The notes beneath the pieces are model-generated. The model saw only the letters and a program-made list of their open reading frames with translations. It made no database searches and was not told the DNA's origin. Source: Pseudobdellovibrionaceae bacterium (GTDB taxonomy: Bacteria > Bdellovibrionota > Bdellovibrionia > Bdellovibrionales > Bdellovibrionaceae). From it: a DNA stretch of 30,072 nucleotides. The DNA lies in the NCBI GenBank assembly GCA_041288045.1, contig JBGGMM010000113.1, forward strand, positions 1 to 30,072, written 5' to 3'. Below are positions 38 through 21,997 of the stretch, piece by piece. Within the stretch, counting starts at the first letter, position 1; every line of letters begins with the position of its first letter. The position numbers and the translations under genes are program-made.

Positions 38-273
38 TTTTCTGGAAACTCGCCGCAGGCGAGCCCCGAAGGGGTGAGGCCCGGATGGCCGAATTTCCAG
101 AAAAGACGGACACGGACGTTCACGATCAGGCAAAGACGCAAGCTTCGCACACCACCTCACCAAATGACTTCGCGACAATCCCTCATCCACGATGTTGACC
201 GTCGGCACACCATACCAACGGACAACATCATGGATGGAGGGTCTCAAGCACAGCGGTGTCGAAGTGGTCGTCT
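38..273. repeat. Multi-hairpin palindromic element (REP/REPIN-like or structured ncRNA)
   Basis: TTTTCTGGAAACTCG (38-52) pairs with CGAATTTCCAGAAAA (90-104) with one mismatch. Short hairpins lie within it: CTCGCC-GCA-GGCGAG (overlapping the left arm), CCCC-GAA-GGGG and GGCC-CGGAT-GGCC. A second ~26-bp imperfect stem is formed by 180-205 with 215-241. No credible CDS here. Confidence 0.55.
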
Positions 274-454: not shown

Positions 455-3319
455 TTAGTGCGCGTTCAATGTCGTTTTACTGCCGTGGAACTGCTCTTCT
501 GTTGAGCCAACAAGGGCTCCAGTTGAAGCTTTTCCTTCAGCGATTGTTTGCAAGACATGGTCAAAGTAGCCAGTGCCGACTTCTTGTTGGTGGCGAACGG
601 CTGTGTAACCGACCTTGGCTCCGGCAAATTCGTGCTCTTGCAAGTTCACATAGGCTGTCATGCCAGCCGTTGAGTACTGTCTTGCCAATTCAAAAGTGTG
701 GTAGTTGAGCAAATGCCAACCTGCCAAAGTGATGAATTGGAATTTGTAACCCAATTGACCCAAACGATTTTGGAACTGAGCAATCTCTTCGTCCGACAAA
801 TGCATTTTCCAGTTGAAGGAAGGAGAGCAGTTGTAGGCTAGAACTTTGCCTGGGTATTTGGCGTGAATTTCAGCTGCGAATTTTTCTGCTTCTGCCATAT
901 CTGGCTTCGAAGTTTCAAACCACAGAACGTCAGCCCATGCACCATAGGCCAGGCCGCGGGCAATAGCATAATCCAATCCGCCGCGAATATGGAAATAGCC
1001 CTCAGGAGTTCTCTCGCCAGTGAGGAATTCGCGATCGGCTTCATCAATATCAGAAGTCATCAAATTGGCGCTCAGAGCATCCGTGCGGGCAATGATCACT
1101 GTTGGCACATCCAAGACGTCAGAGGCCAAACGAGCCGCCTGCAAAGTGCGAACAAAATTGCAAGTCGGGATCAAAACTTTGCCTGCCAAGTGACCGCATT
1201 TTTTTTCTGCTGCCAATTGATCTTCAAAGTGAACACCTGAAGCACCCGCTTCAATCATTGATTTCATCAATTCAAAAGCATGCAAAGGACCACCGAATCC
1301 GGCTTCTGCATCGGCGATGATCGGTGCGTACCAGTCATGACCGCGACCCACATGTCCTTGCGCTTTTTCGATTTGATCCGCTCTTTGAAAGGCATTGTTG
1401 ATTCGCTTCACAACAGCTGGAACTGAATTGGATGGATAAAGACTTTGATCAGGATATGTCTGTCCAGCCAAATTGGCATCAGCGGCCACTTGCCATCCGC
1501 TCAGGTAAATGGCTTTCAGTCCGCCCTTCACCATTTGCACTGCTTGAGCGCCGGTCATCGCCCCGAAAGTGCGAGTGTAATGCTCCTCATGCAACATCTT
1601 CCAAAGCTTTCTGGCACCGAAAGCAGCGATGGTGTGTTGTACTGGAAGAGTGGTTCGAAGCTTGAGCACATCCGCTGGGCTGTAGTTGCGCTGGATTCCC
1701 TGCCATCGAGGGTCGTGACTCCAAGCGTACTCGAGCTGAGAGGCGGAAGCTTCTGTTGTGACTGTCATTGAGTTCTCCTTATGGTGTATGAGGTTGAGCG
1801 TTTCTTCAGATTCCAAAGTTAAAAATTCTTTAAAGTCAGTGGCTCGCACCAAGCGATTCAAAAGCCGAAAAGCTTCCTTCAAAAACGGAGCTTCACTGGC
1901 ATTGATTTTTTTGAGCTCTTCGGCGGCCCATCGGTCGTAAAGTTCCAAAGTGAAAACAGGTCCTTCTTTTAATTTCACTTGGTGATGCACCCATTGCCAA
2001 AGCTGACTTCGCGAAATTTCAGCGGTGGCCGCATCTTCCATGAGATTGTTCAAGGCGACAGCTCCCAATCCTCCAAGCCACTTTTCAATATAGAGCAAAC
2101 AAACTCGAATATTGCTTCGCACTCCTGCTTCGCTCACGGCTCCGCCTTCAATGGAAGTGTTGAGAAGCTCTGGACCTTTGACTTCGACGGCCGGAATTTT
2201 ATTTTTTTGATTTGGCTGAGAACCCAAAACTTTATTGAATTCAACTTCGGCAACAGCAATCAAATCCGGATGCGCCACCCAAGTGCCGTCAAAACCCAAA
2301 TTGGCTTCACGGGCTTTGTCTTGTGTGACGTTCATCAGAGCCTGCTTGGTCACTTCTGGTTCTTTGCGATTGGGAATAAAGGCCGACATTCCACCCATGG
2401 CATGGGCTCCACGACGATGGCAAGTGCGAACCAAAAGGTCACAGTAAGCCTTCATAAAAGGAGTGCTCATGGTGACTTGAGCTCTGTCGGGCAAAATCAT
2501 TTTAGAATTGAAATGGAATTTTTTAATCAGACTGAAAATATAATCCCATCGACCGGCATTAAGACCTGCCGCATGCTCGCGAAGTTCAAAAAGAATTTCT
2601 TCCATCTCAAAGGCCGCCGGCAGAGTTTCAATCAAACATGTGGCACGAATCGTTCCACGCGGGATTTTCAAAGCGTCTTGGGCAAAGTTGAAAACATCAT
2701 TCCAAAGCCGGGCTTCCAAATGACTTTCCATTTTTGGCAGATAAAAATAAGGACCCGATCCCCGCGCCAAAAGCTCTTTGGCGTTGTGGAAAAAATAAAG
2801 CCCAAAATCCACTAGGGATCCTGACATCACTTCGCCTGAAACCTGCAGGTTGGGTTCTTCCAAATGCCAGCCGCGAGGGCGAACCACTAAAGTGGCCGTC
2901 TTACTTTGAAGACGATACTGCTTTCCAGTTTCATTGGTGAATTCAAGATTTTTCCGCACAGCTTGATAAAGAGCCTTTTGCCCTTCCACCAAATTGAACC
3001 AAGTGGGCGAAAGCGAATCTTCAAAATCGGCCATAAAAACTTTGGCACTGGAATTCAATGCATTGATGATCATCTTCGCTTCGGCAGGGCCAGTGATTTC
3101 GACTCGGCGATCATTCAAATCAGCTGGAGCGGCCGCCACTTGCCACGAGCTTTCACGAATGGATTTTGTCTCTGCCAAAAACTGAAGAGTTCCGCCTTTT
3201 TTCAATTCCTCGGCGCGCAAATGACGTTTGTTTAAAAGTTCCTGTCGTCGCGAATTGAATTTGCGATGAAGCTCATTGAGAAAGTGCAAGGCCTCGGAAG
3301 AAAGCAGTTGGAAACTCAT
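455..3319 (-). CDS. aceB-aceA: Malate synthase A - isocitrate lyase fusion protein (MS N-terminal, ICL C-terminal)
   Basis: The N-terminal half has malate synthase A motifs ([60 protein letters not shown]). The C-terminal half has ICL motifs ([52 protein letters not shown]). No stop between them. Start moved to ATG 3319 (AAGGAG 7 nt upstream). Confidence 0.95.
1766..1781 (-). promoter_or_regulatory. Internal in-frame ribosome binding site and ATG at the start of the ICL domain
   Basis: Minus strand reads TAAGGAG-AACTCA-ATG (ATG at 1768), in frame, at the MS/ICL junction (HKENS-MTVT). Confidence 0.7.
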
Positions 3320-3485
3320 AAACTGACTCCTTTTCAAACTGACCTAAGTCTAGCCGAAAGTGGGGCAATAATGTCCAGAAGAAGTTCATTTTCATCAGTT
3401 TATTCGCATAGTTAGAGCATTTACTCTTAGAGCACTTATTCTAAATTGAGTGAGGAATACCTAAAGCCTTGCCTGCCGCCAACGA

Positions 3486-3914
3486 TCAAACCAAAGGATC
3501 ATGGCCTCTTTGGAAAAGAATCAACCCCTGAGCTTCCAATTCGAAAGCCTTTTCAAGAATTTCTTTTTGAGCGGCTTCAACTTTTGTTAAAGGCTGAGGT
3601 CCCAAGTGATCCAAAGCCGCTTTGAGTAAATCAGCTCGGCGCTGAGGTAGAATTTTTAAGATTGAATCAACAAATTCTTTATTTTTCCCGCGAAGGGCCA
3701 TCACCCAGCGAGGATCCGGCACGCTTTGAAAAAGTTTGCTGAGGCCTTGAGGGTTCGCGGAAAGAAGATCCTCAAAGACGATCAGGTTTTTCTTTAGCTT
3801 CTCGGCCATCTGCGGATCTTTTTTTAAAATGTCTGCAAGGATCCGCGCCTGTGATTTGCTGTCTAAAGCACGAAGCGCTTCCAGTGCCGATTCAAAACCT
3901 TTGATTTTCCCCAT
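3486..3914 (-). CDS. Stand-alone FliG C-terminal-domain protein
   Basis: DPQMAEKLKKNLIVFEDL...MALRG...LPQRRADLL...LGP...VEAAQKEI matches the FliG-C pattern (FTFEDL, ALKG, MSxRAA, GPV, VExAQxxI). Only 142 aa; AAGGA upstream. Confidence 0.8.
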   Translation of the reverse strand: MGKIKGFESALEALRALDSKSQARILADILKKDPQMAEKLKKNLIVFEDLLSANPQGLSKLFQSVPDPRWVMALRGKNKEFVDSILKILPQRRADLLKAALDHLGPQPLTKVEAAQKEILEKAFELEAQGLILFQRGHDPLV

Positions 3915-11039: not shown

Positions 11040-11753
11040 TTATCGCTGATTTCGAGAGGCCAGCTCTCGTTGAGATTCGGCGAGATTGCTTCGCTGCTCA
11101 TTTTGCACATTCTCCCAGATTCTCTGGCTCACAGGACCTGGCAAAAGAGATTCGATTGGACCCAATGAAGAAGGCGCAATCGATGTTGCATGATAAAGAA
11201 TTTCGCCTTTGATCCCGGCTAAAATTTCACGCAGCTCTTGAGGAAGCTTGTCATTTTCGACCTGAGGGTCTTGAATCAATTGTTTGCTCACTTCAAGAGC
11301 TGTTTTTTGATCCCCGCTTTGAAGAGCCTCCATCAAAAAATCCAAAGCGGCATTTTCGCTGGTTTCGTACTGAGGATCCTGCATCAGGTGGACATTTCGC
11401 AAAGTCTCGCCCAGAGAGCGCAAAAATTCGGAGTTTTTCAAAAGCGATTTTTTCTTTTCCTGCTCAGCGGCTGTGGGAAAAGGCTTGGCTTTGATGATTT
11501 GAAGCTCTCTCAATTCAGCTTGCAAACTGGGATTGAGTCTTTCTTTTTTCACTTGAGCAGAAGTTGTTGGAACTGGAGTGAGCACCTCTGAAGACTTCTC
11601 TTCCTGTTTTTCTTCAGATTTTTTTTCCGATTTTTTTTCAGAAGAAGCCGTCGAGTTGATAGAAACGGAACTTGGGTCCTTTTTGAAAAGGACCCAAGCC
11701 GTTGCGACTAGTAATAAACCAGTCATTGGAATAATCAAAGACTTCTTCAACAT
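11040..11753 (-). CDS. Hypothetical N-terminally anchored alpha-helical protein, coupled to the Hint protein
   Basis: Its ATG overlaps the upstream TGA (TGATG); one TM helix, an SEKK/SEEK repeat linker, then a helical domain. Confidence 0.8.
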   Translation of the reverse strand: MLKKSLIIPMTGLLLVATAWVLFKKDPSSVSINSTASSEKKSEKKSEEKQEEKSSEVLTPVPTTSAQVKKERLNPSLQAELRELQIIKAKPFPTAAEQEKKKSLLKNSEFLRSLGETLRNVHLMQDPQYETSENAALDFLMEALQSGDQKTALEVSKQLIQDPQVENDKLPQELREILAGIKGEILYHATSIAPSSLGPIESLLPGPVSQRIWENVQNEQRSNLAESQRELASRNQR

Positions 11754-14509
11754 CAAGGTCGTCCCTTATTTTCAAAGGCACCTCGAAAGAGGTTTTCTCG
11801 AAACAGGGCGCGATTCATAAATTTGGCGCCTTCGTTCTGGTAAAAGGCAGTCCCATTCAGATAGCCGTTCACTACCACCACATTCTTTTTCAAGTCATTG
11901 GATTTCACGAAAAGGTTGTAGACCTTGCCATGAAAAATCGTTTTCTCAATCGAGACAATAGGATCCAAGATTCCACCCAATTGCACCAAAGATTCTCCGA
12001 CTTGAAAATCATGAGCCAGTTTCATCACGCCGCTTTGGGCCAAAATCGGATGATTGGGAGTGACCTTTAATTGTCCCCCGGATTTCATCGTGAAAACCAA
12101 GATTTCATGATCTTCATCAAAGAGTTCAGTGACCCAATTATCAACTGCTGATTTGGCAACAGTTTTGCTGCTCATTGAGCTTGCGCTGTGCAAAGTTCCC
12201 ACCCAAGGCATCTGCTCTGTGAGAGCCTGAATAAATGAGACATTTTTCATGTTTCTCTCTTTTTGAGCCTGCGCCAAAATCATTTGATCTGGAGTTGCGC
12301 AAGAAGAGACACACACTGCTCCGATATAGGCCCCAGCTGGGGCTTGGCAAGAGGAGGTTTTCGCCTTTGGTGCAATCCATGGTTTTTTTGATTTTGGATC
12401 CATAAAAGTTGGGTACAAAAGACGAACCCCTTCGTCGATATGCAGTCCCTTGTACTGAGCCTCTGTCATCGAGCTTAAAAACTCTTTCACAGCTGGGATT
12501 TGATCCGCACATTTTTTCATCCAAGCCAATCGTCCTTTGGCCTGCTCGTTGGTCAAAGAATCGTGCGAGCATCGGTAAGGGACCAGGTCGCGACAGTAGG
12601 TTTCTTGCACCCAAGGACCTGCTGTGACTTGAGAATCGACGGCTTGAACTTGATGATCCTGGCAGGCGTAAGTGGTCGTGGTTGTGACTTCGCGGCTTTG
12701 AAGAATCACACCAATTTGATTTTTTGGACAAGTCGCACTGCTGCCCGCTTCTTCGGTACTGACTGAAGATTCCGAACGACGAACAGCTTCAGGATTTGCA
12801 TCACACAGCCTTTCTACCAAAGGCGCAGAACCTGAACATCGCGAAGCTTCAGTCACTTGACCTAAATTGTCGCGGCATTCGAAAACCTGTTGCTGCTTTC
12901 CACCGCAATCGGCAGAACATGTGCTCCATTGATTGCTGGCGACGAATGAATACGTGGGGCAAAGACCAGCGGTTTTTATTTCACCTTTTCGGGTGTTCGT
13001 GGTTTGAACCGATCCATCCTGACAAACCAAATCTGAAACCAATTGATAGGTGCTTGTGATTCCCTGCTCACCAAAAGCGCAAGTCACTGCTTCCGAAGTT
13101 TCTCCGGTCACAACTCCAGTTTGAGTGCTCCCATGGGATCCGAAATCACCGCAGCCATTGTGACAGGTGAGATACTTGGCCTCATTGGATCCGGATAAAA
13201 CCCCATTTTGGCAAAGCCGAGTCTGCTGCACAGATTGACAAGAATCGACCGGCGTTTTGGATGTGTAGAGAGATCGCGATTCACCATCTTTTAAATTTTC
13301 AGTGCCATTTTCAGTGGTGATTTGGCAAGACTGCCCCAAGCAAGCTCCTTCATTGATCAGGACTCGCTCTCGTGAAATCTCACTCCAGACCAGGAATTCA
13401 CCTGAAATCTGACATTTCTGAGTGATCTGCTCTCGATAAGTCATGATTTTTTTGCCATCGGCTCCGCAGGCCACCTCTTCTGTGCTAGTTGCGCCCTCTT
13501 GCACTCGGCTGGCCCCCTCATTCAGACAGTGATTGGGATCATTGGGATCTGAAATCGGCCCTGGCATTTCCTCTAGATTGTCACTGACTGTAATAAAACG
13601 ATGCAAAGTCAAAGATCGATTGTTTAAGAAAACCTCAGCTGTGATTTCAAAATCACCGGCAGTGGCAAAGCGATGTCCCGCCTGCGCTCCAGTGGCTGAT
13701 CCAGAGCCATCACCGAAATTCCAGACAATCTGAGTCACCTGAGTTTTCAAACAGTCCGTCAGGTTCACCGAGTAAGTCACCAGTCGATCCAAGGGAACTT
13801 CGGTGGGTCCAGCAATATCCAGTTGGTCCAATGGACAAAACTGACCTTCCGGAAGCTGCAAAATGGAAATCAAATGTTGGACTGTCAAAGATTGACCATT
13901 TTCATCTTTGGCTGTGACAGTGATTGTGAATGTTCCTTCAGGAAAAGCATGAGTGATAGAAGAAAGCGAATTTTCAATGGCAGATTCATCACCAAAATCC
14001 CATTGAGCTTCGGATAAGGCGACGCCCTCTGGAGATTTCAAAGTGAAAGTGAGGGGCTGATCCGCAAACCCAGCTTGCGGACCTTCAATCAAAAGAGCAG
14101 AATCGGCCACAGCAACTCGGGTTGAAATTGTCATTTCTGAAACAGATTTATTTTGATTGGCGGAAACTTCGGGTGGAAGTGCGACAGAAATAAAGTACAC
14201 TCCAGATCCTTGAATTTTGGCTTTGATTTCAGAGCCTGAACCTAAATAGGTGTCACCCACTGTCCAGACGGCTTTTTGAGCTGAATCACAATTCACTCCG
14301 GGGCTGAGACTGAGAGCAGTTGCCAGTCCCGATTTGAGATTTTCTGTTCCAAGCATGCTGACATTTTGACTTTTCCCTTGTTGGCATGAAGCTGACGACT
14401 GAAGCCCTTCACTGACAGACGTGTTTTCACCTTCTCCAGGTGCGCCTGACTTCTGACAGGCTGACAGAAAAAGACTGCTGAGAATGAGAAGCCACATTGA
14501 GGTTTTCAT
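11753..14509 (-). CDS. Large lipoprotein: two PKD domains, Cys-rich modules, thrombospondin type-1-like repeat, C-terminal Hint domain
   Basis: AAGGAG before ATG 14509; lipobox LSA-C; PKD motifs WDFGD and WNFGDG; WSTCSADCGG..Q.FECRD (TSP1-like); Hint motifs S-CATPDQMI, LKVTPNHPI, AHDFQVGESL, KVYNLFV...VVVNGYL. Confidence 0.85.
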   Translation of the reverse strand: MKTSMWLLILSSLFLSACQKSGAPGEGENTSVSEGLQSSASCQQGKSQNVSMLGTENLKSGLATALSLSPGVNCDSAQKAVWTVGDTYLGSGSEIKAKIQGSGVYFISVALPPEVSANQNKSVSEMTISTRVAVADSALLIEGPQAGFADQPLTFTLKSPEGVALSEAQWDFGDESAIENSLSSITHAFPEGTFTITVTAKDENGQSLTVQHLISILQLPEGQFCPLDQLDIAGPTEVPLDRLVTYSVNLTDCLKTQVTQIVWNFGDGSGSATGAQAGHRFATAGDFEITAEVFLNNRSLTLHRFITVSDNLEEMPGPISDPNDPNHCLNEGASRVQEGATSTEEVACGADGKKIMTYREQITQKCQISGEFLVWSEISRERVLINEGACLGQSCQITTENGTENLKDGESRSLYTSKTPVDSCQSVQQTRLCQNGVLSGSNEAKYLTCHNGCGDFGSHGSTQTGVVTGETSEAVTCAFGEQGITSTYQLVSDLVCQDGSVQTTNTRKGEIKTAGLCPTYSFVASNQWSTCSADCGGKQQQVFECRDNLGQVTEASRCSGSAPLVERLCDANPEAVRRSESSVSTEEAGSSATCPKNQIGVILQSREVTTTTTYACQDHQVQAVDSQVTAGPWVQETYCRDLVPYRCSHDSLTNEQAKGRLAWMKKCADQIPAVKEFLSSMTEAQYKGLHIDEGVRLLYPTFMDPKSKKPWIAPKAKTSSCQAPAGAYIGAVCVSSCATPDQMILAQAQKERNMKNVSFIQALTEQMPWVGTLHSASSMSSKTVAKSAVDNWVTELFDEDHEILVFTMKSGGQLKVTPNHPILAQSGVMKLAHDFQVGESLVQLGGILDPIVSIEKTIFHGKVYNLFVKSNDLKKNVVVVNGYLNGTAFYQNEGAKFMNRALFRENLFRGAFENKGRP

Positions 14510-15478: not shown

Positions 15479-16672
15479 TCAAGCCGAAGGTTGCGCTTCG
15501 ACACTGCTGTCTGGAATTTTCTCTAAAAGAACTGTTAAGACAAAAGTAGATCCCTGACCAGGGGCTGTGGCTTTGAGTAACAAATCCCCCTTCAGTGCCC
15601 GCGCCAGTTGTTGTGCAATCACCAGCCCAAGACCTGTTCCCCCATACTGCCGCTTGGTCGAAGCATCTGCTTGCGTGAAAGGCTGAAACAAGGACTCTGC
15701 CTGCTCGGGAGTCATGCCAATGCCAGTATCTGTCACGGTGATCGTCAATCGATCAAAATTCTCGTTCTCATGAGTGAGATCAAGCGCCCGAGTTTCCATT
15801 TCAACTCGCACTTCACCTTGATTCGTAAACTTAATGGCATTGCCAATCACATTGATCAGGATTTGCTTCAGACGAACCGGATCACAGAGATAACTTTGTT
15901 GCATTGAATTCTTGAAAACAGAAGAGAGCTGAATCTTTTTTTCTTCCGCTCTCTTTTGCAAAATTGAAATCACGTCCTGAATAAGCTCTTGAAGATTGAA
16001 TTTTACCTTTTCAAGAACGAGTCTTTGAGCTTCAATTTTAGAAAAATCCAAAATATCGTCAATGATTCTTAAAAGCAGATGACCATTCCGGCGAATAGCT
16101 TCGCCAAATTGCTCGCGTTCCGAATCTGATATATCACTTTGAGAAATCAGATCGGCAAAACCCATCACTGCGCCCAAAGGGGTTCTGATTTCGTGGCTCA
16201 TATTCGCCAAGAATCGGCTTTTTGCCAAATTGGCGGCATCAGCCTCAATACGCAGCCGATTCATTTGTTCCAATTGCTGCTTCAATTTTTTATTCTGTTG
16301 ATCAATTTGCACAAAAGCTTTGACCTTGCTTCGAACCACATGCGGATCCAAGGGCTTAAATAAAAGGTCCACAGCACCCGTTTCATAGCCTTCAAAAATA
16401 AAAGACTGCTCTTGCAGGTGGGCTGTCACAAACATAATTGGCAGACCACGGAATCTTTTCACTCCGCGAATCAGCCGCGCCAGTTCAAAGCCACTGACGA
16501 TCGGCATTTGTACATCCAAAACGGCCAGCGCAAAATCATGATTCATCAAAAGATTCAATGCGCGATCCGCATCCTGCGCCGAGATCACCTCAATCTCGTC
16601 GCTCTCAATCAAGCGTGTGAGAGCTTTGATATTCTCTGGTTGATCATCAACCACGAGGATGTTGGTCTTCAT
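15479..16672 (-). CDS. Cytoplasmic hybrid kinase, REC-HisKA-HATPase
   Basis: ILVVDD..LDVQMP..FVTA..KP receiver; [14 protein letters not shown]-box; [32 protein letters not shown]. Confidence 0.93.
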
Positions 16673-17246
16673 AAGCTCCTTTTCTCTGCATCAACCGATT
16701 GAGAAATGCTGAAATCTCGGCAAGATCTAAAATCAAGTCTGGTTGAAAGATCTTAATTGCCGATGATGGCATCATTGACAACTCTGCCGTTTGCGGCGAC
16801 TGGACGATGGTTATTCCTCCTCTTTTTTTGATTTCAAACAAACCGAGTGCCCCATCTTCGTTGGCGCCAGTCAAAAGGACTCCAGTGAGAGCTTTGGCAA
16901 AAACAGAAGCTGCTGATTCGAAAAAAACATCAATCGAAGGTCTTGAAAAATGCACGGGTTCGTCCACTGAAAGCGCAAAACAGGAGTCTTTTTCAAGTAG
17001 GACATGATAACCCGGAGGACAAAGGTACACTCCGCCTTTTTCAAGAGGCATTTTATCCTCAATTTCACGCACTTTGAGCGAAGTGTATCTCTGGATACCC
17101 ATTCCATGGGGACCATTCGACCTTGCCGAAAGGTGCTGAACCATGACGATAGGGATTTGAAAGTCGCCTCGCAAACTGGAAAGAATTTTTTGAAAAGCCG
17201 AAATTCCACCTGCCGATGCGCCAATGGCAATCATTTTAATTTGCAT
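16647..17246 (-). CDS. cheB: Stand-alone CheB methylesterase catalytic domain, no receiver
   Basis: IGASAGG (Ser), VQH (His), [25 protein letters not shown] (Asp). Start reassigned to ATG 17246, overlapping the cheR stop. Confidence 0.9.
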
Positions 17247-18087
17247 GAAGACCTTCCTTTCCCCATGCAAGATTTTCTTTCTGAAAAATTTTATGTTTCG
17301 GATCAAAGACCCGATAACTTCGGTGCAGGGAAGAAAAGCGAGTCGTCTCTTTGCTGCCAAGAACAAGAAAACCATGATAGACCAAAGAATCATGAAAAAG
17401 CCGCAGAACCCGATCCTCTAAAGTGCGATTGAAATAGATCAAAACGTTTCGACAGAGAATCAAGTGCATTTCGCGAAAGACGTGATCGGTCGCCAGGTTG
17501 TGTTCTTCGAAAAGAATGTTTTCCTTGAGTTCGTTCTGAAAATGTCCAAATCCCTTTTTCACTGTGTAATAATCCGAAGGGCTCTGAGTCCCGCCAGAGG
17601 CGGTGTAATTGTGAACATAGCTTTGAAAAGTTGAAAGCGAATACCGGCCTTCTCGGGCCATTTCGAGAGCCCGTGGATTGATGTCAGTCGCAAAAATATT
17701 GGAGCGGCTGTAAAGCCCTTCTTCTAGCAGAATGATCGCTAAACTATAAACCTCTTCACCTGTGCTACAACCGGCAACCCAGATATTCAACCGAGGATAG
17801 GTCTTTAAAATTGGAACGAGGCTTTCCCGAATGGTTTTAAAGACCAAGGGATCGCGAAAGAGCTCTGTGGTTGAAATTGTCAAAAAAGGCAGAATTTTTT
17901 CAAATAGCTCGGGATCGTTGTACACTTTTTTTAAAAAATCGAAGCCGTCTTGAAATTCGAACTTTTTAAAAATGTTCTGCAGTCTTCGACTAAATGAGGA
18001 TTCTGCATACTTACGAAAATCATATCCATATTTCAGAAAGATTCCCTCTAAAATCAGTTTTTGCTCGAGAGAATCAACCGAGCTCAT
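17236..18087 (-). CDS. cheR: CheR-type protein-glutamate O-methyltransferase
   Basis: GYDFRKY, TELFRDP, IWVAGCSTGEEVYSLAI, ATDIN, LILCRNVLIYF, GFLVLGSKE. Confidence 0.93.
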   Translation of the reverse strand: MSSVDSLEQKLILEGIFLKYGYDFRKYAESSFSRRLQNIFKKFEFQDGFDFLKKVYNDPELFEKILPFLTISTTELFRDPLVFKTIRESLVPILKTYPRLNIWVAGCSTGEEVYSLAIILLEEGLYSRSNIFATDINPRALEMAREGRYSLSTFQSYVHNYTASGGTQSPSDYYTVKKGFGHFQNELKENILFEEHNLATDHVFREMHLILCRNVLIYFNRTLEDRVLRLFHDSLVYHGFLVLGSKETTRFSSLHRSYRVFDPKHKIFQKENLAWGKEGLHAN

Positions 18088-21000
18088 CTGTGCATCCTCT
18101 CAGACGAGAGCCACACTTTCAAAACAGATCGCAGATTGGCCAATTGAATGGGCTTTGGCAGATAATCGTTCGCTCCCGCTTCAAGACATTTGGCTTTGCT
18201 TTCAGGAGCTGTCTTGGCAGTTAAAGCAATAATTGGCAGGCGACTGAACTGCTTATGAGCCCGCACTCGACGGATGGCCTCAAAGCCATCCATTTTGGGC
18301 ATCATCAAATCCATCAGAACGATTTCAATATCATCATCTTCTTCGAGCATTTGCAGGGCCTCAAAACCATTGCGGGCAATCCGCACGTTCAAGCCCCAGG
18401 CCTCCAAAGCGTGCGCAAGAGCAAAAACGTTTCTCAAATCATCATCCACCAGGAGCACGGTTTTTCCTTCGATTTCAGAGCCTTCCCAAAAGCTTTCTTC
18501 GGGGATTTGATTCTTATCGAAAGAATTGATATTGGCTTTTTGATTGAGAAACAGATGAACTTCGTCAACCAACCGCTCCGGTGAGCGAGCCCCTTTGATA
18601 ATGATACTTTCAGAAAAACGGCGAAGCGTTTCTTCTTCTTGCTCGGTGATTTCCCTTCCTGTGTAAATCACAATCGGCGGAAGCTGGACCGCTTGAGTCC
18701 TTAAACGCTCAAGAACATCAAATCCTGAGACATCGGGAAGCTCCAAATCCAAAATGATGCAGTCGTAGTTCGCGCTTTGTATCATCTGAAGGGCTTCTCC
18801 TCCATTGGTGGCAGTCGAAACCTCGAGATTGCGTCCAGAGATCAACTGAACAATGGCATCTTTTTGCCTTTCGTTATCCTCAACCACTAAAATCTTGCGA
18901 ACTTCAGGTTGCCAAATTTCTTTCAAATGATGAAAAGCCGAGCGAATCTCGGAACCCTTCAATGGTTTTTTCAATCGACCCAAAACTTCCAGACCTTCAA
19001 CGCCGAGAGCCTCTGAATCTCCGGAAATGATTTGAATCGGAATGGATTTGAGATTTTCACTCAGCTTGAGGTTTTGCATGAGCTGTTTTCCACCAAGCCC
19101 TGGAAGATCCAAATCCAGGAAAATTCCCTTTGGCTGATGTTCACGCAATAAATCCAAAGCCATCTCAGCGGACGCAACGCAGATGGGCTGATATCCACCC
19201 TCTTGAGCGATTCGCGAAATCTGACGTTGGATCTGAGGTTCATCTTCGATAATGAGAATGCTCTTCATTTCAGAAGAAAGATCTTTGAGGATCATATCCA
19301 TTTGAGGTCTTGTTTCGGCCGACTCTGCGGACACTGCCGGGCCGAGCGAAGGTTTTTTTTCTTCAGATTTGAGAATTTGCTCAGACAGTTGCATTGGAAT
19401 TTCCAAAGTGAATCGACTGCCTTGACCCACTTCGGTTTGCAAGCTGACATTCCCCCCCAAGAGCGAAGCCAATTCTTTTGAAATTGTCAGTCCCAATCCT
19501 GTTCCACCGTAGCGGCGACTGACAGAGCTGTCCGCTTGCTCGAAAGCTTCAAAGATCAAGTCCTTCTTATTTTCTTCGATTCCAATACCTGAGTCCTGAA
19601 CTGAAAAACGAATCCAGCCTTCTTTTTCTCCGGGCTCAACAATCAGTTGAACTTGTCCTTCTTGAGTGAATTTAAGGGCATTTGAAAGAAAATTTCTCAA
19701 AACCTGCTCCACCCGTTGACGATCCGTATGCATATTGGCTTCGCGAATTTCCTGAGACAGCTGAATTTCGAATTTCAGATTTTTTGATTGAAACTGCAGC
19801 TCAAAGGTTTTTTGCAAATGATCCGCCAGGGATTGAACAGTGAATTTTTCCGGTCGCAAATTGAGTTTTTGGGCATCCATTTTTGAGAGGTCCAAAATAT
19901 CATTGATCAAACTCAAAAGATCATGACCCGCACCATAAATTGACTGAGCGAATTCTTGCTGCTGGGGAGAAAGATTTTTTTCTTTGTTCTCAATGAGGAG
20001 CGAAGTCAGAATCAAGAGACTGTTGAGGGGGGTTCGCAGCTCATGTGACATTTTGGCCAGAAAATCGGATTTATACTGATTGGCCTTGGTCAAATCAAGG
20101 GCCCGCCTTTCGGCGATCCTTTTTGCCAAATCCAGCTCTTCAGTTTTATTTTTTAAGACCTGTTGCTGCTCTTCCAGCAGTCTGGCCTGCTCGGAAAGTT
20201 CGTCATTGCTTGAGCGAAGCTCTTCTTGTTGGGCCTGAAGCTCCTCGGTCTGCTGCTCAAGCTCTTCGTTGTTGGCCCTGAGCTCTTCTTGCTGGCTTTT
20301 GAGCTCTTCGCTTTGCTCTTGAGTTTTTTCCAGCAGGTTTTGCAATCGCTCTCGCCAAAGCGCCGAATTCAAGCCACTGGCAATGATCAATCTCTGTCTT
20401 TCCAAAAGCTTTGATTCTTGCTCTGACAGCTGGCTGAAAAATGCAATTTCCATCACACCGAGTTTTTGCCCTTCAAATTTCAATGGCACGAAGACCAGAA
20501 ATTTCGGGGGCGCTTTGCCAAGTGTCGAAGAGACCATCAGATAGTTTTCAGGAATATCGCTGACCTGCCAAATGTCATCTCGCCGAAAAGCTTCGCCGAT
20601 CAATCCCTCCCCCATTTTCACTTTCCGAGGCGAGGTCAAATTCGAGTGGTCTTCAGCGAAGCTGCTCAAATGGAGAAGCTGAGAATCTTCATGCAGATAA
20701 AGATTGGCGGCGGTCAGCGGAAGGTCAGTCGAAAGTTTTTGCAGGATATGTTGTGAAATTTCTTTTAATGGAAGAGGTTTTGCTAATTCTTGAGCCAGTT
20801 CGGCCACAAGCTTTTGAATTTCGGCTTCTTCTGCCTGCAGTGCCGAGACAGCCTGAGCCCGCCGCTGATTCCTCCAAATCTGAGTCAAAGACCAAGTGAT
20901 AATCAGAATACTGGCGAAAGTTGTGAGGATCAGGGCGATATGAAAATTTCTCTGAGAATTGAAAGCTCTTTCATCGCGAAGGAGCAGCAGCCGTTCTTCT

Positions 21001-21509
21001 TCGGCTTTCAAATTGCTCAATTGATGGCGAAGGTTCTCCATGAGAGCCTGCCCGGTTCGAAATATCGGATGGCCTTCAAATTTTTCGCCTGGATTTGAAG
21101 ACAAAATCAGTTGATGAATTTTTTCAAGTGCCTGCATGCGGGACCGCAGAGCCAGCTCGACCGAGGCCAGCACAGTTTCTTGATTTCCATTGTCTTGGAC
21201 GAGATTCCGAACTTTATATAAATGCTCCCAAGCTTCGACTTGTCCCCGCTGAAACTCCTCGAAAGATGTGGTTTCTCGATTCAAAACAAAGCCGCGGATT
21301 CCAGCTTCGGACTCTTTCACAGAGGAGTAAATTAAATCGATTTCATGAATGACCTGATCGGAATGGCGAATCCAATCTTGATGGGCCCGAACAGTATTAA
21401 AGTTATACCAGAGAAATCCAGCATTGGATAACAAAAGAGCACTTGCTAAAAGCGCATAAGGACTGACACTTAAAAATTTCATTGAGCCACGAATTCGCAT
21501 AAACCTCAT
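18084..21509 (-). CDS. Membrane hybrid sensor kinase: CHASE3-like, GAF, coiled coil, HisKA-HATPase, three REC domains
   Basis: Two TM helices around WIRHSDQVI..ESEAGIRGFVL..EEERLL (CHASE3-like); GEGLIGEA..VPL..GVMEIA (GAF); MSHELRTPLNS; three receivers with Asp (FLDLDLP, ILDLELP, LMDLMMP). Start may be 21500 or 21482. Confidence 0.93.
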   Translation of the reverse strand: MRFMRIRGSMKFLSVSPYALLASALLLSNAGFLWYNFNTVRAHQDWIRHSDQVIHEIDLIYSSVKESEAGIRGFVLNRETTSFEEFQRGQVEAWEHLYKVRNLVQDNGNQETVLASVELALRSRMQALEKIHQLILSSNPGEKFEGHPIFRTGQALMENLRHQLSNLKAEEERLLLLRDERAFNSQRNFHIALILTTFASILIITWSLTQIWRNQRRAQAVSALQAEEAEIQKLVAELAQELAKPLPLKEISQHILQKLSTDLPLTAANLYLHEDSQLLHLSSFAEDHSNLTSPRKVKMGEGLIGEAFRRDDIWQVSDIPENYLMVSSTLGKAPPKFLVFVPLKFEGQKLGVMEIAFFSQLSEQESKLLERQRLIIASGLNSALWRERLQNLLEKTQEQSEELKSQQEELRANNEELEQQTEELQAQQEELRSSNDELSEQARLLEEQQQVLKNKTEELDLAKRIAERRALDLTKANQYKSDFLAKMSHELRTPLNSLLILTSLLIENKEKNLSPQQQEFAQSIYGAGHDLLSLINDILDLSKMDAQKLNLRPEKFTVQSLADHLQKTFELQFQSKNLKFEIQLSQEIREANMHTDRQRVEQVLRNFLSNALKFTQEGQVQLIVEPGEKEGWIRFSVQDSGIGIEENKKDLIFEAFEQADSSVSRRYGGTGLGLTISKELASLLGGNVSLQTEVGQGSRFTLEIPMQLSEQILKSEEKKPSLGPAVSAESAETRPQMDMILKDLSSEMKSILIIEDEPQIQRQISRIAQEGGYQPICVASAEMALDLLREHQPKGIFLDLDLPGLGGKQLMQNLKLSENLKSIPIQIISGDSEALGVEGLEVLGRLKKPLKGSEIRSAFHHLKEIWQPEVRKILVVEDNERQKDAIVQLISGRNLEVSTATNGGEALQMIQSANYDCIILDLELPDVSGFDVLERLRTQAVQLPPIVIYTGREITEQEEETLRRFSESIIIKGARSPERLVDEVHLFLNQKANINSFDKNQIPEESFWEGSEIEGKTVLLVDDDLRNVFALAHALEAWGLNVRIARNGFEALQMLEEDDDIEIVLMDLMMPKMDGFEAIRRVRAHKQFSRLPIIALTAKTAPESKAKCLEAGANDYLPKPIQLANLRSVLKVWLSSERMHR

Positions 21510-21511
21510 GA

Positions 21512-21997
21512 CTAAGAAAGTTCAAGGATTTCATTCAACTCACTTTCAATTCCACGAACAGTCCGCTCCAATTTGGGATCCTTCACAACCGATGAAGCAA
21601 TTCTGAAAAAATGGCTTTCCAATCCTTGAAGCGTAAAATCCTCTTCTTGATCGCGCAAAACAATCACTGGGATTTTTCCGATTTCAATCAGTGAATTTTC
21701 CAGAAGTGGCTCCATATAATTTTCAGCTTCCGTGAGAGCCTGATAGGGATTGAGCTTACTGTCCAAGACAAGCACATCAAAAGAATCATGGGTCATCCGA
21801 CTGAGGGCTTGATAGGGATTTTTCACCACTTCGACTTCGACATCCAGGTGGTGTCGAATGAGCGAAGCCAGCAGCTGTGAAAAATCCCAGTCTTCTTCAA
21901 TCAAGAGAATGCGTTTTTTGCCGAGGTGGAAAAACTCATCCTCTTGAAAATGCGGATGAACTCCATTCATGGTAAATTCTGTGGCCATGAATTCCAA
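21512..21997 (-). CDS. Single-domain atypical response regulator receiver
   Basis: ILLIEED..FDVLVLD..IPVIVL fits a receiver fold, but the conserved Thr/Ser and the KP motif are degenerate. AAGGAG upstream. Confidence 0.7.
   Translation of the reverse strand: MEFMATEFTMNGVHPHFQEDEFFHLGKKRILLIEEDWDFSQLLASLIRHHLDVEVEVVKNPYQALSRMTHDSFDVLVLDSKLNPYQALTEAENYMEPLLENSLIEIGKIPVIVLRDQEEDFTLQGLESHFFRIASSVVKDPKLERTVRGIESELNEILELS

What the first reader, a model, noticed from the sequence alone, without database searches (positions are those of the whole stretch)
11753..12301. Hedgehog-like Hint domain with no His-Asn terminus on a surface lipoprotein
Seen: the Hint starts at Cys737 (VSS/CATPDQMI, codon 12301-12299), has TxxH (TPNH) and block F (VYNLFV), and ends VVNGYLNGT where inteins have xxNGxxxHN. 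A ~30-aa tail follows (AFYQNEGAKFMNRALFRENLF). Established: Cys1 plus TxxH drive the N-S acyl shift; without the terminal Asn there is no splicing, and Hedgehog resolves the thioester with cholesterol recruited by a short C-terminal region. Inference: this protein self-cleaves and may ligate its adhesin-like N-fragment to an unknown nucleophile (lipid, glycan, peptidoglycan or a target-cell molecule), with the tail acting as adduct-recognition region.
Basis: partly seen in the sequence, partly recalled or inferred. Interest (0 to 1): 0.78.

Follow-up and report, generated by a model that had tools for sequence, protein, structure and literature searches.

The report
Self-cutting predator protein with docking partner
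This gene encodes a relative of Bd2400, a known self-cleaving surface protein of predatory Bdellovibrio bacteria, and its short conserved tail is predicted to dock on a likely membrane-anchored protein made by the next gene, which likely controls when the surface part is cut loose.

Summary
Observation confirmed: a 918-aa lipoprotein (14509-11753, minus strand) ends in a Hint fold (C737-T887; Z 16-17 to inteins and Hedgehog). Gly886/Thr887 stand where inteins have His/Asn, followed by a 31-aa tail. The kind is known: this is a full-length orthologue (44% identity) of Bdellovibrio bacteriovorus Bd2400, the type protein of C-type bacterial intein-like (BIL) domains (Dori-Bachash 2009; not readable here, content recalled). 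This scan noted another C-type BIL before, on other DNA. Splicing through Asn885 is unlikely (83 of 152 homologues keep it). What appears new: the next gene, an unnamed helical protein with an N-terminal hydrophobic segment, accompanies the domain (51 of 54 loci, the other 3 truncated; the same 31 of 201 genomes) and is fused to it once. It is predicted to bind the distal tail (score 0.84, best control 0.16). The tail therefore looks mainly like a partner-docking site for tether-and-release. Short family members lie in operons with a subtilase-like lipoprotein and a MACPF/cytolysin-like protein.

The parts
11753..14509 (-). Bd2400-orthologous precursor gene, 918 aa (lipoprotein signal, 2 PKD, Cys-rich beta stalk, PPS-1, C-type BIL Hint domain, tail)
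14456..14509 (-). Signal peptide with lipobox (LSA-C18)
   Evidence: sequence; Cys18 in 95 of 100 homologues; lipidation is inferred
13886..14065 (-). PKD domain 1 (aa 149-208)
   Evidence: Pfam PF00801
13631..13816 (-). PKD domain 2 (aa 232-293)
   Evidence: Pfam PF18911
12614..13528 (-). Cys-rich, long-beta-strand stalk (aa 328-632) with a TSP1-like segment (526-571)
   Evidence: (TSP1 below cut-off)
12302..12595 (-). Conserved domain directly upstream of the Hint (aa about 639-736; RCxxDSL, GRxxW, YPTF, WxAP, C733); taken to be PPS-1; it would be the C-terminus of the released fragment
   Evidence: the name PPS-1 rests on position and orthology to Bd2400, not on the authors' profile
11849..12301 (-). 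Hint domain, C737-T887
12299..12301 (-). Cys737, the Cys1 nucleophile
   Evidence: (147 of 152)
12050..12061 (-). Block B TxxH (T817-P-N-H820)
   Evidence: T 151, H 152 of 152
11906..11923 (-). Block F VYNLFV; Asn865 at the position of the intein block-F Asp
   Evidence: (N 151 of 152)
11849..11854 (-). G886-T887 at the positions of intein His-Asn
11756..11848 (-). 31-aa tail: proximal motif Y/F890-Q891-N892 next to the Hint end; distal part (897-912) predicted to dock on the partner
11040..11753 (-). Partner gene (237 aa from the ATG that overlaps the precursor's stop, TGATG): N-terminal hydrophobic segment, low-complexity linker, helical HEAT-like domain of no Pfam family
11669..11700 (-). 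Strong stem-loop in the 5' part of the partner gene; possible mRNA-stability element (inferred)

Best explanation
The gene encodes an orthologue of Bdellovibrio Bd2400, an exported lipoprotein with a C-type bacterial intein-like Hint domain that likely cuts itself between Ser736 and Cys737 without splicing, while its conserved tail is predicted to dock on the likely membrane-anchored protein of the next gene, which likely tethers the precursor and times the release. Steps. (1) Export and lipidation at Cys18 (inferred from the lipobox). (2) Cys737, helped by Thr817/His820, forms a thioester (fold and residues shown; chemistry established for Hint domains; N-cleavage of Bd2400's BIL recalled from the 2009 abstract). 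(3) There is no His-Asn and no +1 nucleophile, so no splicing (shown by alignment). (4) The thioester is most likely resolved by water or a small thiol, freeing the lipid-anchored PKD-stalk-PPS-1 fragment (inferred). (5) Tail residues about 897-912 bind the partner's conserved AGxKxE and PGPVSxxIWxNV surface (predicted). (6) The partner thereby holds the precursor and gates cleavage in place or time (inferred, the weakest step).
For: Orthology: 44% identity over 926 columns to CAE80217.1 of B. bacteriovorus. The published bd2400 qPCR primers translate to ATPEQQI and TMQSAD, found at residues 737 and 771 of that protein; implied amplicon 122 nt against 121 printed. Fold and catalytic residues. 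Partner linkage: directly downstream in 51 of 54 named-genome loci, the other 3 ending within 218 nt; start overlapping the stop in 37 of 49; present in 11 of 13 short-type operons, the other 2 cut by contig ends. Among 201 genomes of the phylum, full PPS-1/Hint matches (E<1e-50) and full-length partner matches (E<=6e-7) fall in the same 31 genomes, with 2 and 2 copies in G129 and G172. One natural fusion, P0173 (partner profile E 4e-43). Complex prediction: score 0.84, best of 3 controls 0.16; the mark was reached by 116 of 157 solved complexes and 2 of 215 mismatched pairs (counts hold only roughly with my own alignments); runs agree in at least 79% of contacts, partner pLDDT at least 87; the best pairs are L907, F908, A911, R904 against partner 180-188 and 209-220. 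These are the partner's most conserved segments, and the same tail stretch has low confidence alone (pLDDT about 60). Hint-less PPS-1 proteins exist, one ending 4 residues after the C733 equivalent, about at the cleavage point, and genomes G212 and G069, which have only such proteins, show no full partner.
Against: No cleavage, binding or localisation was measured. The 2009 paper could not be read, so its results are recalled and it may already discuss the tail or the neighbour. The complex score is model confidence, not affinity. About 20 of the 31 co-occurring genomes contributed a sequence to the partner profile, and kin are not independent. Seventeen further genomes gave weak partner hits limited to the N-terminal part of the profile, which I treated as non-specific. 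A search for longer, fused partner forms found none among 5697 candidates; the second possible fusion P0193 is weak (profile E 8e-5; no significant BLAST); P0173 has lost Cys1. Divergent Hint-plus-tail proteins in G200 and G096 showed no partner hit, and G103 only a weak one (E 2e-4). The model does not list the active-site residues in the interface, so how the partner would gate chemistry is open. The proximal tail motif is not explained by partner binding.
Confidence: 0.6

Rival explanations
1. Hedgehog-like ligation: the thioester is attacked by an outside nucleophile (lipid, glycan, peptidoglycan amine or prey molecule) recruited by the tail, possibly with the partner presenting it, so the N-fragment ends up covalently tagged.
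For: Same layout as Hedgehog: exported N-domain, Gly/Ser-Cys junction (S 100, G 46 of 152), terminal Hint, short tail of fixed length (20-40 aa in 147 of 152). Polar tail residues Q891 (150), N892 (133), N899 (134), R900 (123), R904 (134) are conserved. N892 is lost in 3 of 3 Cys1-less homologues but kept in 131 of 147 intact ones (Fisher p 0.002, n very small), so the proximal tail is tied to the chemistry. An acidic residue near Hedgehog's D303 spacing exists (E795; E or D in 97 of 147).
Against: The distal tail is predicted to be occupied by a protein. The tail is no more amphipathic than its shuffles (0.447 against 0.482, 150 sequences), unlike the helical sterol-recognition region described in PMC9163320. 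Position 795 is Ser in 48 of 147, so no invariant general base. Hint-less PPS-1 proteins exist, so the domain can be made without ligation. No acceptor-specific gene is seen next to the two-gene operon in the window.
Confidence: 0.2
2. The partner is only a folding or export chaperone that recognises the tail as a sorting signal; cleavage is spontaneous hydrolysis and is not gated.
For: Fits all linkage and docking evidence equally; the predicted interface avoids the active site.
Against: Bd2400 is recalled to be processed differently across the life cycle although its gene is expressed constitutively (used as a housekeeping gene in PMC11271337), which suggests control.
Confidence: 0.12
3. The partner itself is the acyl acceptor: the N-fragment is transferred to a conserved partner residue such as Lys91, giving a covalent membrane-anchored product.
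For: K91 and K183 are nearly invariant in the close set and residues 90-94 are in the predicted interface; the one clear fusion has a dead Cys1, which would mimic a permanently joined product.
Against: C737, T817, H820 and T887 are not among the listed interface residues; K91 is not kept in several divergent partners; a single fusion.
Confidence: 0.05
4. True splicing or C-terminal cleavage through a nearby Asn (N885 or N892).
For: N892 is well conserved and lost with Cys1; S/T887 offers a hydroxyl that could take a branched ester.
Against: N885 is Asn in only 83 of 152 (Ser 39, Thr 15, Val 8). Structural alignments put T887, not an Asn, at the terminal position. N892 lies after a helical turn, has no preceding His, and is followed by Glu/Asp (115 of 152), not Cys/Ser/Thr.
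Confidence: 0.03

Closest known systems
Bd2400 of Bdellovibrio bacteriovorus and the C-type BIL / PPS-1 family (Dori-Bachash et al. 2009, pmid 19153786; not readable here)
   Same: Full-length 44% identity, same length and domain order, same Hint ends and tail, same downstream gene in named B. bacteriovorus loci.
   Different: No architectural difference found. The partner gene, the tail-partner docking and the subtilase/MACPF-like operon context were not found in any paper I could search; the 2009 full text was not seen.
Hedgehog Hog domain (Hint plus sterol-recognition region)
   Same: Exported N-domain, terminal Hint with Cys1 and TxxH, no His-Asn, short tail; Z 16.4, rmsd 2.2 A, 135 aligned to 1at0.
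   Different: 14-15% identity; Ser/Thr, not Cys, at the domain end; no invariant D303 equivalent; tail not amphipathic and predicted to bind a protein; sterol ligation has no support here.
B-type BIL domains
   Same: No block-G His-Asn; cleavage uncoupled from splicing (PMC4031507); a conserved Ser/Thr near the end (PMC9185962).
   Different: Different host architecture, PPS-1 upstream, a conserved tail and a linked partner; no Pfam Hint_2 hit for this protein.
Inteins and A-type BILs
   Same: Fold (Z up to 17.4), Cys1, block B, block F.
   Different: No terminal His-Asn/Gln and no +1 nucleophile; sits at the end of the protein, not inside a conserved host protein.
Vint domain (PDB 8r2c)
   Same: Hint fold with a C-terminal extension; the only listed match whose range reaches into the tail (model 103..269; Z 10.9, rmsd 3.1 A, 124 aligned).
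   Different: VWA host protein, described as probably not secreted (PMC2362128); weaker match than inteins.

Membership tests
C-type BIL / Bd2400 family | Homology to the type protein Bd2400 over the Hint domain and the whole protein | tested here: met
   44% over 926 columns; the target is identified as Bd2400 by published primers
C-type BIL / Bd2400 family | Hint fold with Cys1 and TxxH | tested here: met
C-type BIL / Bd2400 family | PPS-1 domain directly upstream of the Hint (named in PMC9185962; position recalled) | tested here: met
   A conserved Cys-containing domain precedes the Hint here, in Bd2400 and in the short members. The authors' own PPS-1 profile was not available, so the name rests on orthology.
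C-type BIL / Bd2400 family | Signal peptide and two PKD domains at the N-terminus (recalled for Bd2400) | tested here: met
C-type BIL / Bd2400 family | Occurrence in predatory bacteria | tested here: met
   53 of the 54 named loci are titled Bdellovibrio, Pseudobdellovibrio(naceae), Bdellovibrionaceae, Bdellovibrionales or Bdellovibrionota, one 'Proteobacteria bacterium'; a predatory lifestyle of this organism itself is inferred
C-type BIL / Bd2400 family | Autocatalytic N-terminal cleavage | not testable with these tools
   recalled for Bd2400 in vitro; needs a bench assay here
Intein / A-type BIL | Terminal His-Asn (or Gln) | tested here: not met
   G886-T887 at these positions
Intein | Cys/Ser/Thr at +1 | tested here: not met
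   A888; Ala in 65, Ser in 33, Val in 14 of 152
Hedgehog Hog domain | General-base Asp (D303, 23 residues before the TxxH Thr) | tested here: inconclusive
   T794 is at that spacing, E795 one off; position 795 is E 61, S 48, D 36 of 147; no residue-level structural alignment was returned
Hedgehog Hog domain | Amphipathic sterol/adduct-recognition helices after the Hint | tested here: not met
   hydrophobic moment 0.447 against 0.482 for shuffles; tail about 27 aa
Hedgehog Hog domain | Covalent transfer of the N-domain to an adduct | not testable with these tools
   needs mass spectrometry

The most novel reading that the evidence does not exclude
C-type BILs are a two-component, Hedgehog-like processing machine of predatory bacteria: a membrane-anchored partner grips the tail, switches on the Hint domain, and the proximal tail motif directs the thioester onto a specific acceptor (an envelope lipid, glycan or prey-surface molecule), covalently fixing the PPS-1-tipped adhesin, which in short members works with a subtilase-like lipoprotein and a MACPF-like protein in attack on prey.
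Probability: 0.18. Interest if true: 0.8.

Novelty: new member of a known kind. Interest (0 to 1): 0.45.

Why it matters
The domain and its self-cleavage were described in 2009, so the finding as first written is largely known. The family seems little studied since (5 papers in the searchable library cite that work), and the purpose of its conserved tail was not addressed in anything I could read. A tightly linked partner with a confident predicted interface on the tail turns this into direct tests in a tractable predator: a Hint domain controlled by a separate protein would be an unusual kind of regulated autoprocessing, of use for triggerable cleavage tags. The link of PPS-1 to subtilase-like and MACPF-like genes gives a first functional lead toward prey attack.

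Tried and rejected
Single-sequence searches do not see the Hint: Pfam none, PDB phmmer only E 0.26 to an intein behind spurious Ifi204 hits. Dori-Bachash 2009 is not held by DOI or PubMed id, nor the 2008 proteome paper. Paper searches for Bd2399, C-type BIL details and the Vint structure paper gave nothing further. A Pfam scan of alignment A1 exceeded the size limit and was not repeated. The search for related loci failed with the diverse alignment and with the single protein, and worked with A2. No longer, fused partner forms were found. The tail as an amphipathic sterol-type helix was rejected. Splicing via N885 was rejected. Foldseek of the full-length model gave only low-TM matches to Ig-rich chains; the PPS-1 region had no match above Z 2.6 in a search dominated by the Hint domain and was not folded alone, so its fold is untested. 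The MACPF-like profile has no PDB sequence hit and no match in G000, which is 83% complete. No RNA holder listed. No promoter-like site upstream of the gene; counts were at or below chance. A covariation analysis was set up (Neff about 143) but not run. No supplementary files were read; those of the 2009 paper may bear on the novelty of the tail and partner.
Full report
Observation. The minus-strand frame 14509-11753 encodes 918 residues from MKTS; C737 is codon 12301-12299, TPNH is 817-820, VYNLFV 863-868, and 31 residues follow T887. Pfam reports two PKD domains and a sub-threshold TSP1 segment but no Hint. A profile of 135 homologues reaches inteins and the Clostridium BIL 2lwy. An AlphaFold2 model of residues 633-918 (pLDDT 87.7) matches Hint folds by Foldseek (E 3e-9) and VIA-align (Z 17.4, rmsd 2.3 A, 139 aligned; Hedgehog 1at0 Z 16.4, 2.2 A, 135 aligned). 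Several intein alignments span exactly C737..T887, so G886 and T887 replace the His and Asn.

Identity. The search with residues 620-918 gave 219 proteins (120 listed). One is CAE80217.1, a 913-aa 'putative cell surface protein' of B. bacteriovorus, 44% identical over 926 columns. PMC11271337 (passages read) prints qPCR primers for bd2400; they translate to ATPEQQI and TMQSAD, which lie at residues 737 and 771 of that protein, an amplicon of 122 nt against 121 printed. So the window gene, single-copy in its 83%-complete genome, is a Bd2400 orthologue. PMC9185962 (passages) cites Dori-Bachash et al. 2009 for C-type BILs and their PPS-1 domain. That paper is not held. From memory of its abstract, Bd2400 has a signal peptide, two PKD domains, PPS-1 and a C-type BIL, is secreted and processed differently through the life cycle, and its BIL cleaves at its N-terminus in vitro; these points are recalled, not checked.

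Family and residues. HMMER over cluster representatives found 501 relatives (150 listed), many of about 300 aa: signal peptide, PPS-1, Hint, tail. In an alignment of 152: C737 147, T817 151, H820 152, N865 151, G886 149, S/T887 144, Q891 150, N892 133, N899 134, R900 123, R904 134. N885 is Asn in only 83, and the +1 residue is mostly Ala, so splicing is unlikely. The tail is 20-40 aa in 147 of 152. All 3 homologues without Cys1 have lost N892, against 16 of 147 intact ones (n is small; two fragments lacking the junction were left out). The proximal tail is thus tied to the chemistry. The tail is not more amphipathic than its shuffles, and the position nearest Hedgehog's D303 (PMC9163320, passages) is E, S or D.

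The partner. The next gene (11753-11040) starts on an ATG that overlaps the stop codon. It has an N-terminal hydrophobic segment, a low-complexity linker and a helical domain with no Pfam family and only loose HEAT-like resemblance (TM below 0.5). A homologue follows the Hint gene in 51 of 54 named-genome loci, the other three ending within 218 nt, with overlapping stop and start in 37 of 49. In 13 short-type loci it is the third gene in 11; two are cut by contig ends. Across 201 genomes of the phylum, complete PPS-1/Hint matches and full-length partner matches mark the same 31 genomes; about 20 of these had contributed to the partner profile, 17 other genomes gave weak N-terminal-only hits, and related genomes are not independent. 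P0173 fuses a Cys1-less Hint and tail to the partner domain; P0193 is a weak second case; a search for longer forms found none.

Predicted complex. Residues 633-914 folded with partner 62-236 scored 0.84 against a best control of 0.16; this mark was reached by 116 of 157 solved complexes and 2 of 215 mismatched pairs, counts that hold only roughly with my alignments; runs agree in at least 79% of contacts and the partner's pLDDT is at least 87. The surest contacts join tail residues L907, F908, A911 and R904 to partner residues 180-188 and 209-220, its most conserved segments; PPS-1 and Hint surface loops add contacts, while C737, T817, H820 and T887 are not listed. Neither chain pair has a solved relative that I found, so a pass from memory is unlikely but not excluded. 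The model supports binding; it does not show it.

What is released. Stand-alone PPS-1 proteins without Hint occur: tandem secreted copies with Pro-rich ends in G107, G184 and G126, and one in G172 that ends four residues after the C733 equivalent, about at the cleavage point. No partner gene was detected beside the tandem copies. PPS-1 can therefore be produced without any Hint step, which argues against obligatory ligation. In short-type loci the second gene is a lipoprotein with a subtilase-like domain (10 of the 10 scanned) and the fourth often a secreted protein whose N-terminal domain resembles MACPF/thiol-activated cytolysins by language-model features (score 0.96, a lead only), followed by LRR and Kelch repeats; its profile hits 10 of 13 loci, 7 of them in the training set, and also the gene beside the tandem PPS-1 copies. 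It was not found within the 4-kb flanks of the Bd2400-type loci or in G000.

Mechanism. Most likely the precursor is exported and lipidated, its tail docks on the co-translated anchored partner, and Cys737 cuts the Ser736-Cys737 bond through a thioester that is hydrolysed, freeing the PKD-stalk-PPS-1 fragment while Hint and tail stay with the partner. Family assignment and N-cleavage are about 0.9 likely, tail-partner binding about 0.75, a gating role about 0.5-0.6. Hedgehog-like ligation stays open at about 0.2, because the proximal motif is unexplained and the layout fits.

Novelty. The partner, the docking site and the operon context were not found in my searches, with the caveat that the key paper and its supplements were not seen. 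Other papers consulted as passages only: PMC5874633, PMC3403396, PMC2362128, PMC4031507. Interest 0.45.

Noticed in passing
L101-L113 (short-type loci), e.g. L104:685-7012: Recurring four-gene operon: signal-PPS-1-Hint-tail protein, subtilase-like lipoprotein, partner, and a secreted MACPF/cytolysin-like protein with LRR and Kelch repeats. The subtilase catalytic triad was not checked.
   Followed up: partly
L094:2217-3599, L095:2398-3362, L096:2228-3209: Tandem arrays of two or three small secreted stand-alone PPS-1 proteins with Pro-rich, Cys-ending tails, directly upstream of a MACPF-like LRR gene.
   Followed up: partly
window 11669-11700 (-): Strong stem-loop early in the partner gene. 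In 49 partner genes the +50 to +110 window folds 4.9 kcal/mol below its shuffles against about 1 elsewhere, with differing sequences; possibly an mRNA-stability element setting the precursor-to-partner ratio. Only a mononucleotide shuffle control was used.
   Followed up: partly
P0173, P0164, P0167: Homologues that lost Cys1 (Gly, Ser, Gly) while keeping TxxH; P0173 is fused to the partner domain.
   Followed up: partly
L114:2347-3153, L115:1702-2499, L116:2544-3614, L119:906-2441: More divergent secreted Hint proteins ending in GDLxWQ/LQ plus a short tail, with a different upstream domain (CxCGC junction in three); L116 lies two genes from a MACPF-like gene.
   Followed up: no
window 455-3337 (-): A single 960-aa open frame carrying both malate synthase and isocitrate lyase domains, a fused glyoxylate-shunt enzyme.
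   Followed up: no
window 3486-3914 (-): Stand-alone FliG C-terminal domain protein, 142 aa, outside a flagellar cluster.
   Followed up: no
window 15479-21997 (-): Cluster of CHASE3-GAF hybrid kinase with three receivers, CheR, CheB and a receiver-kinase; looks like an ordinary signalling operon.
   Followed up: no
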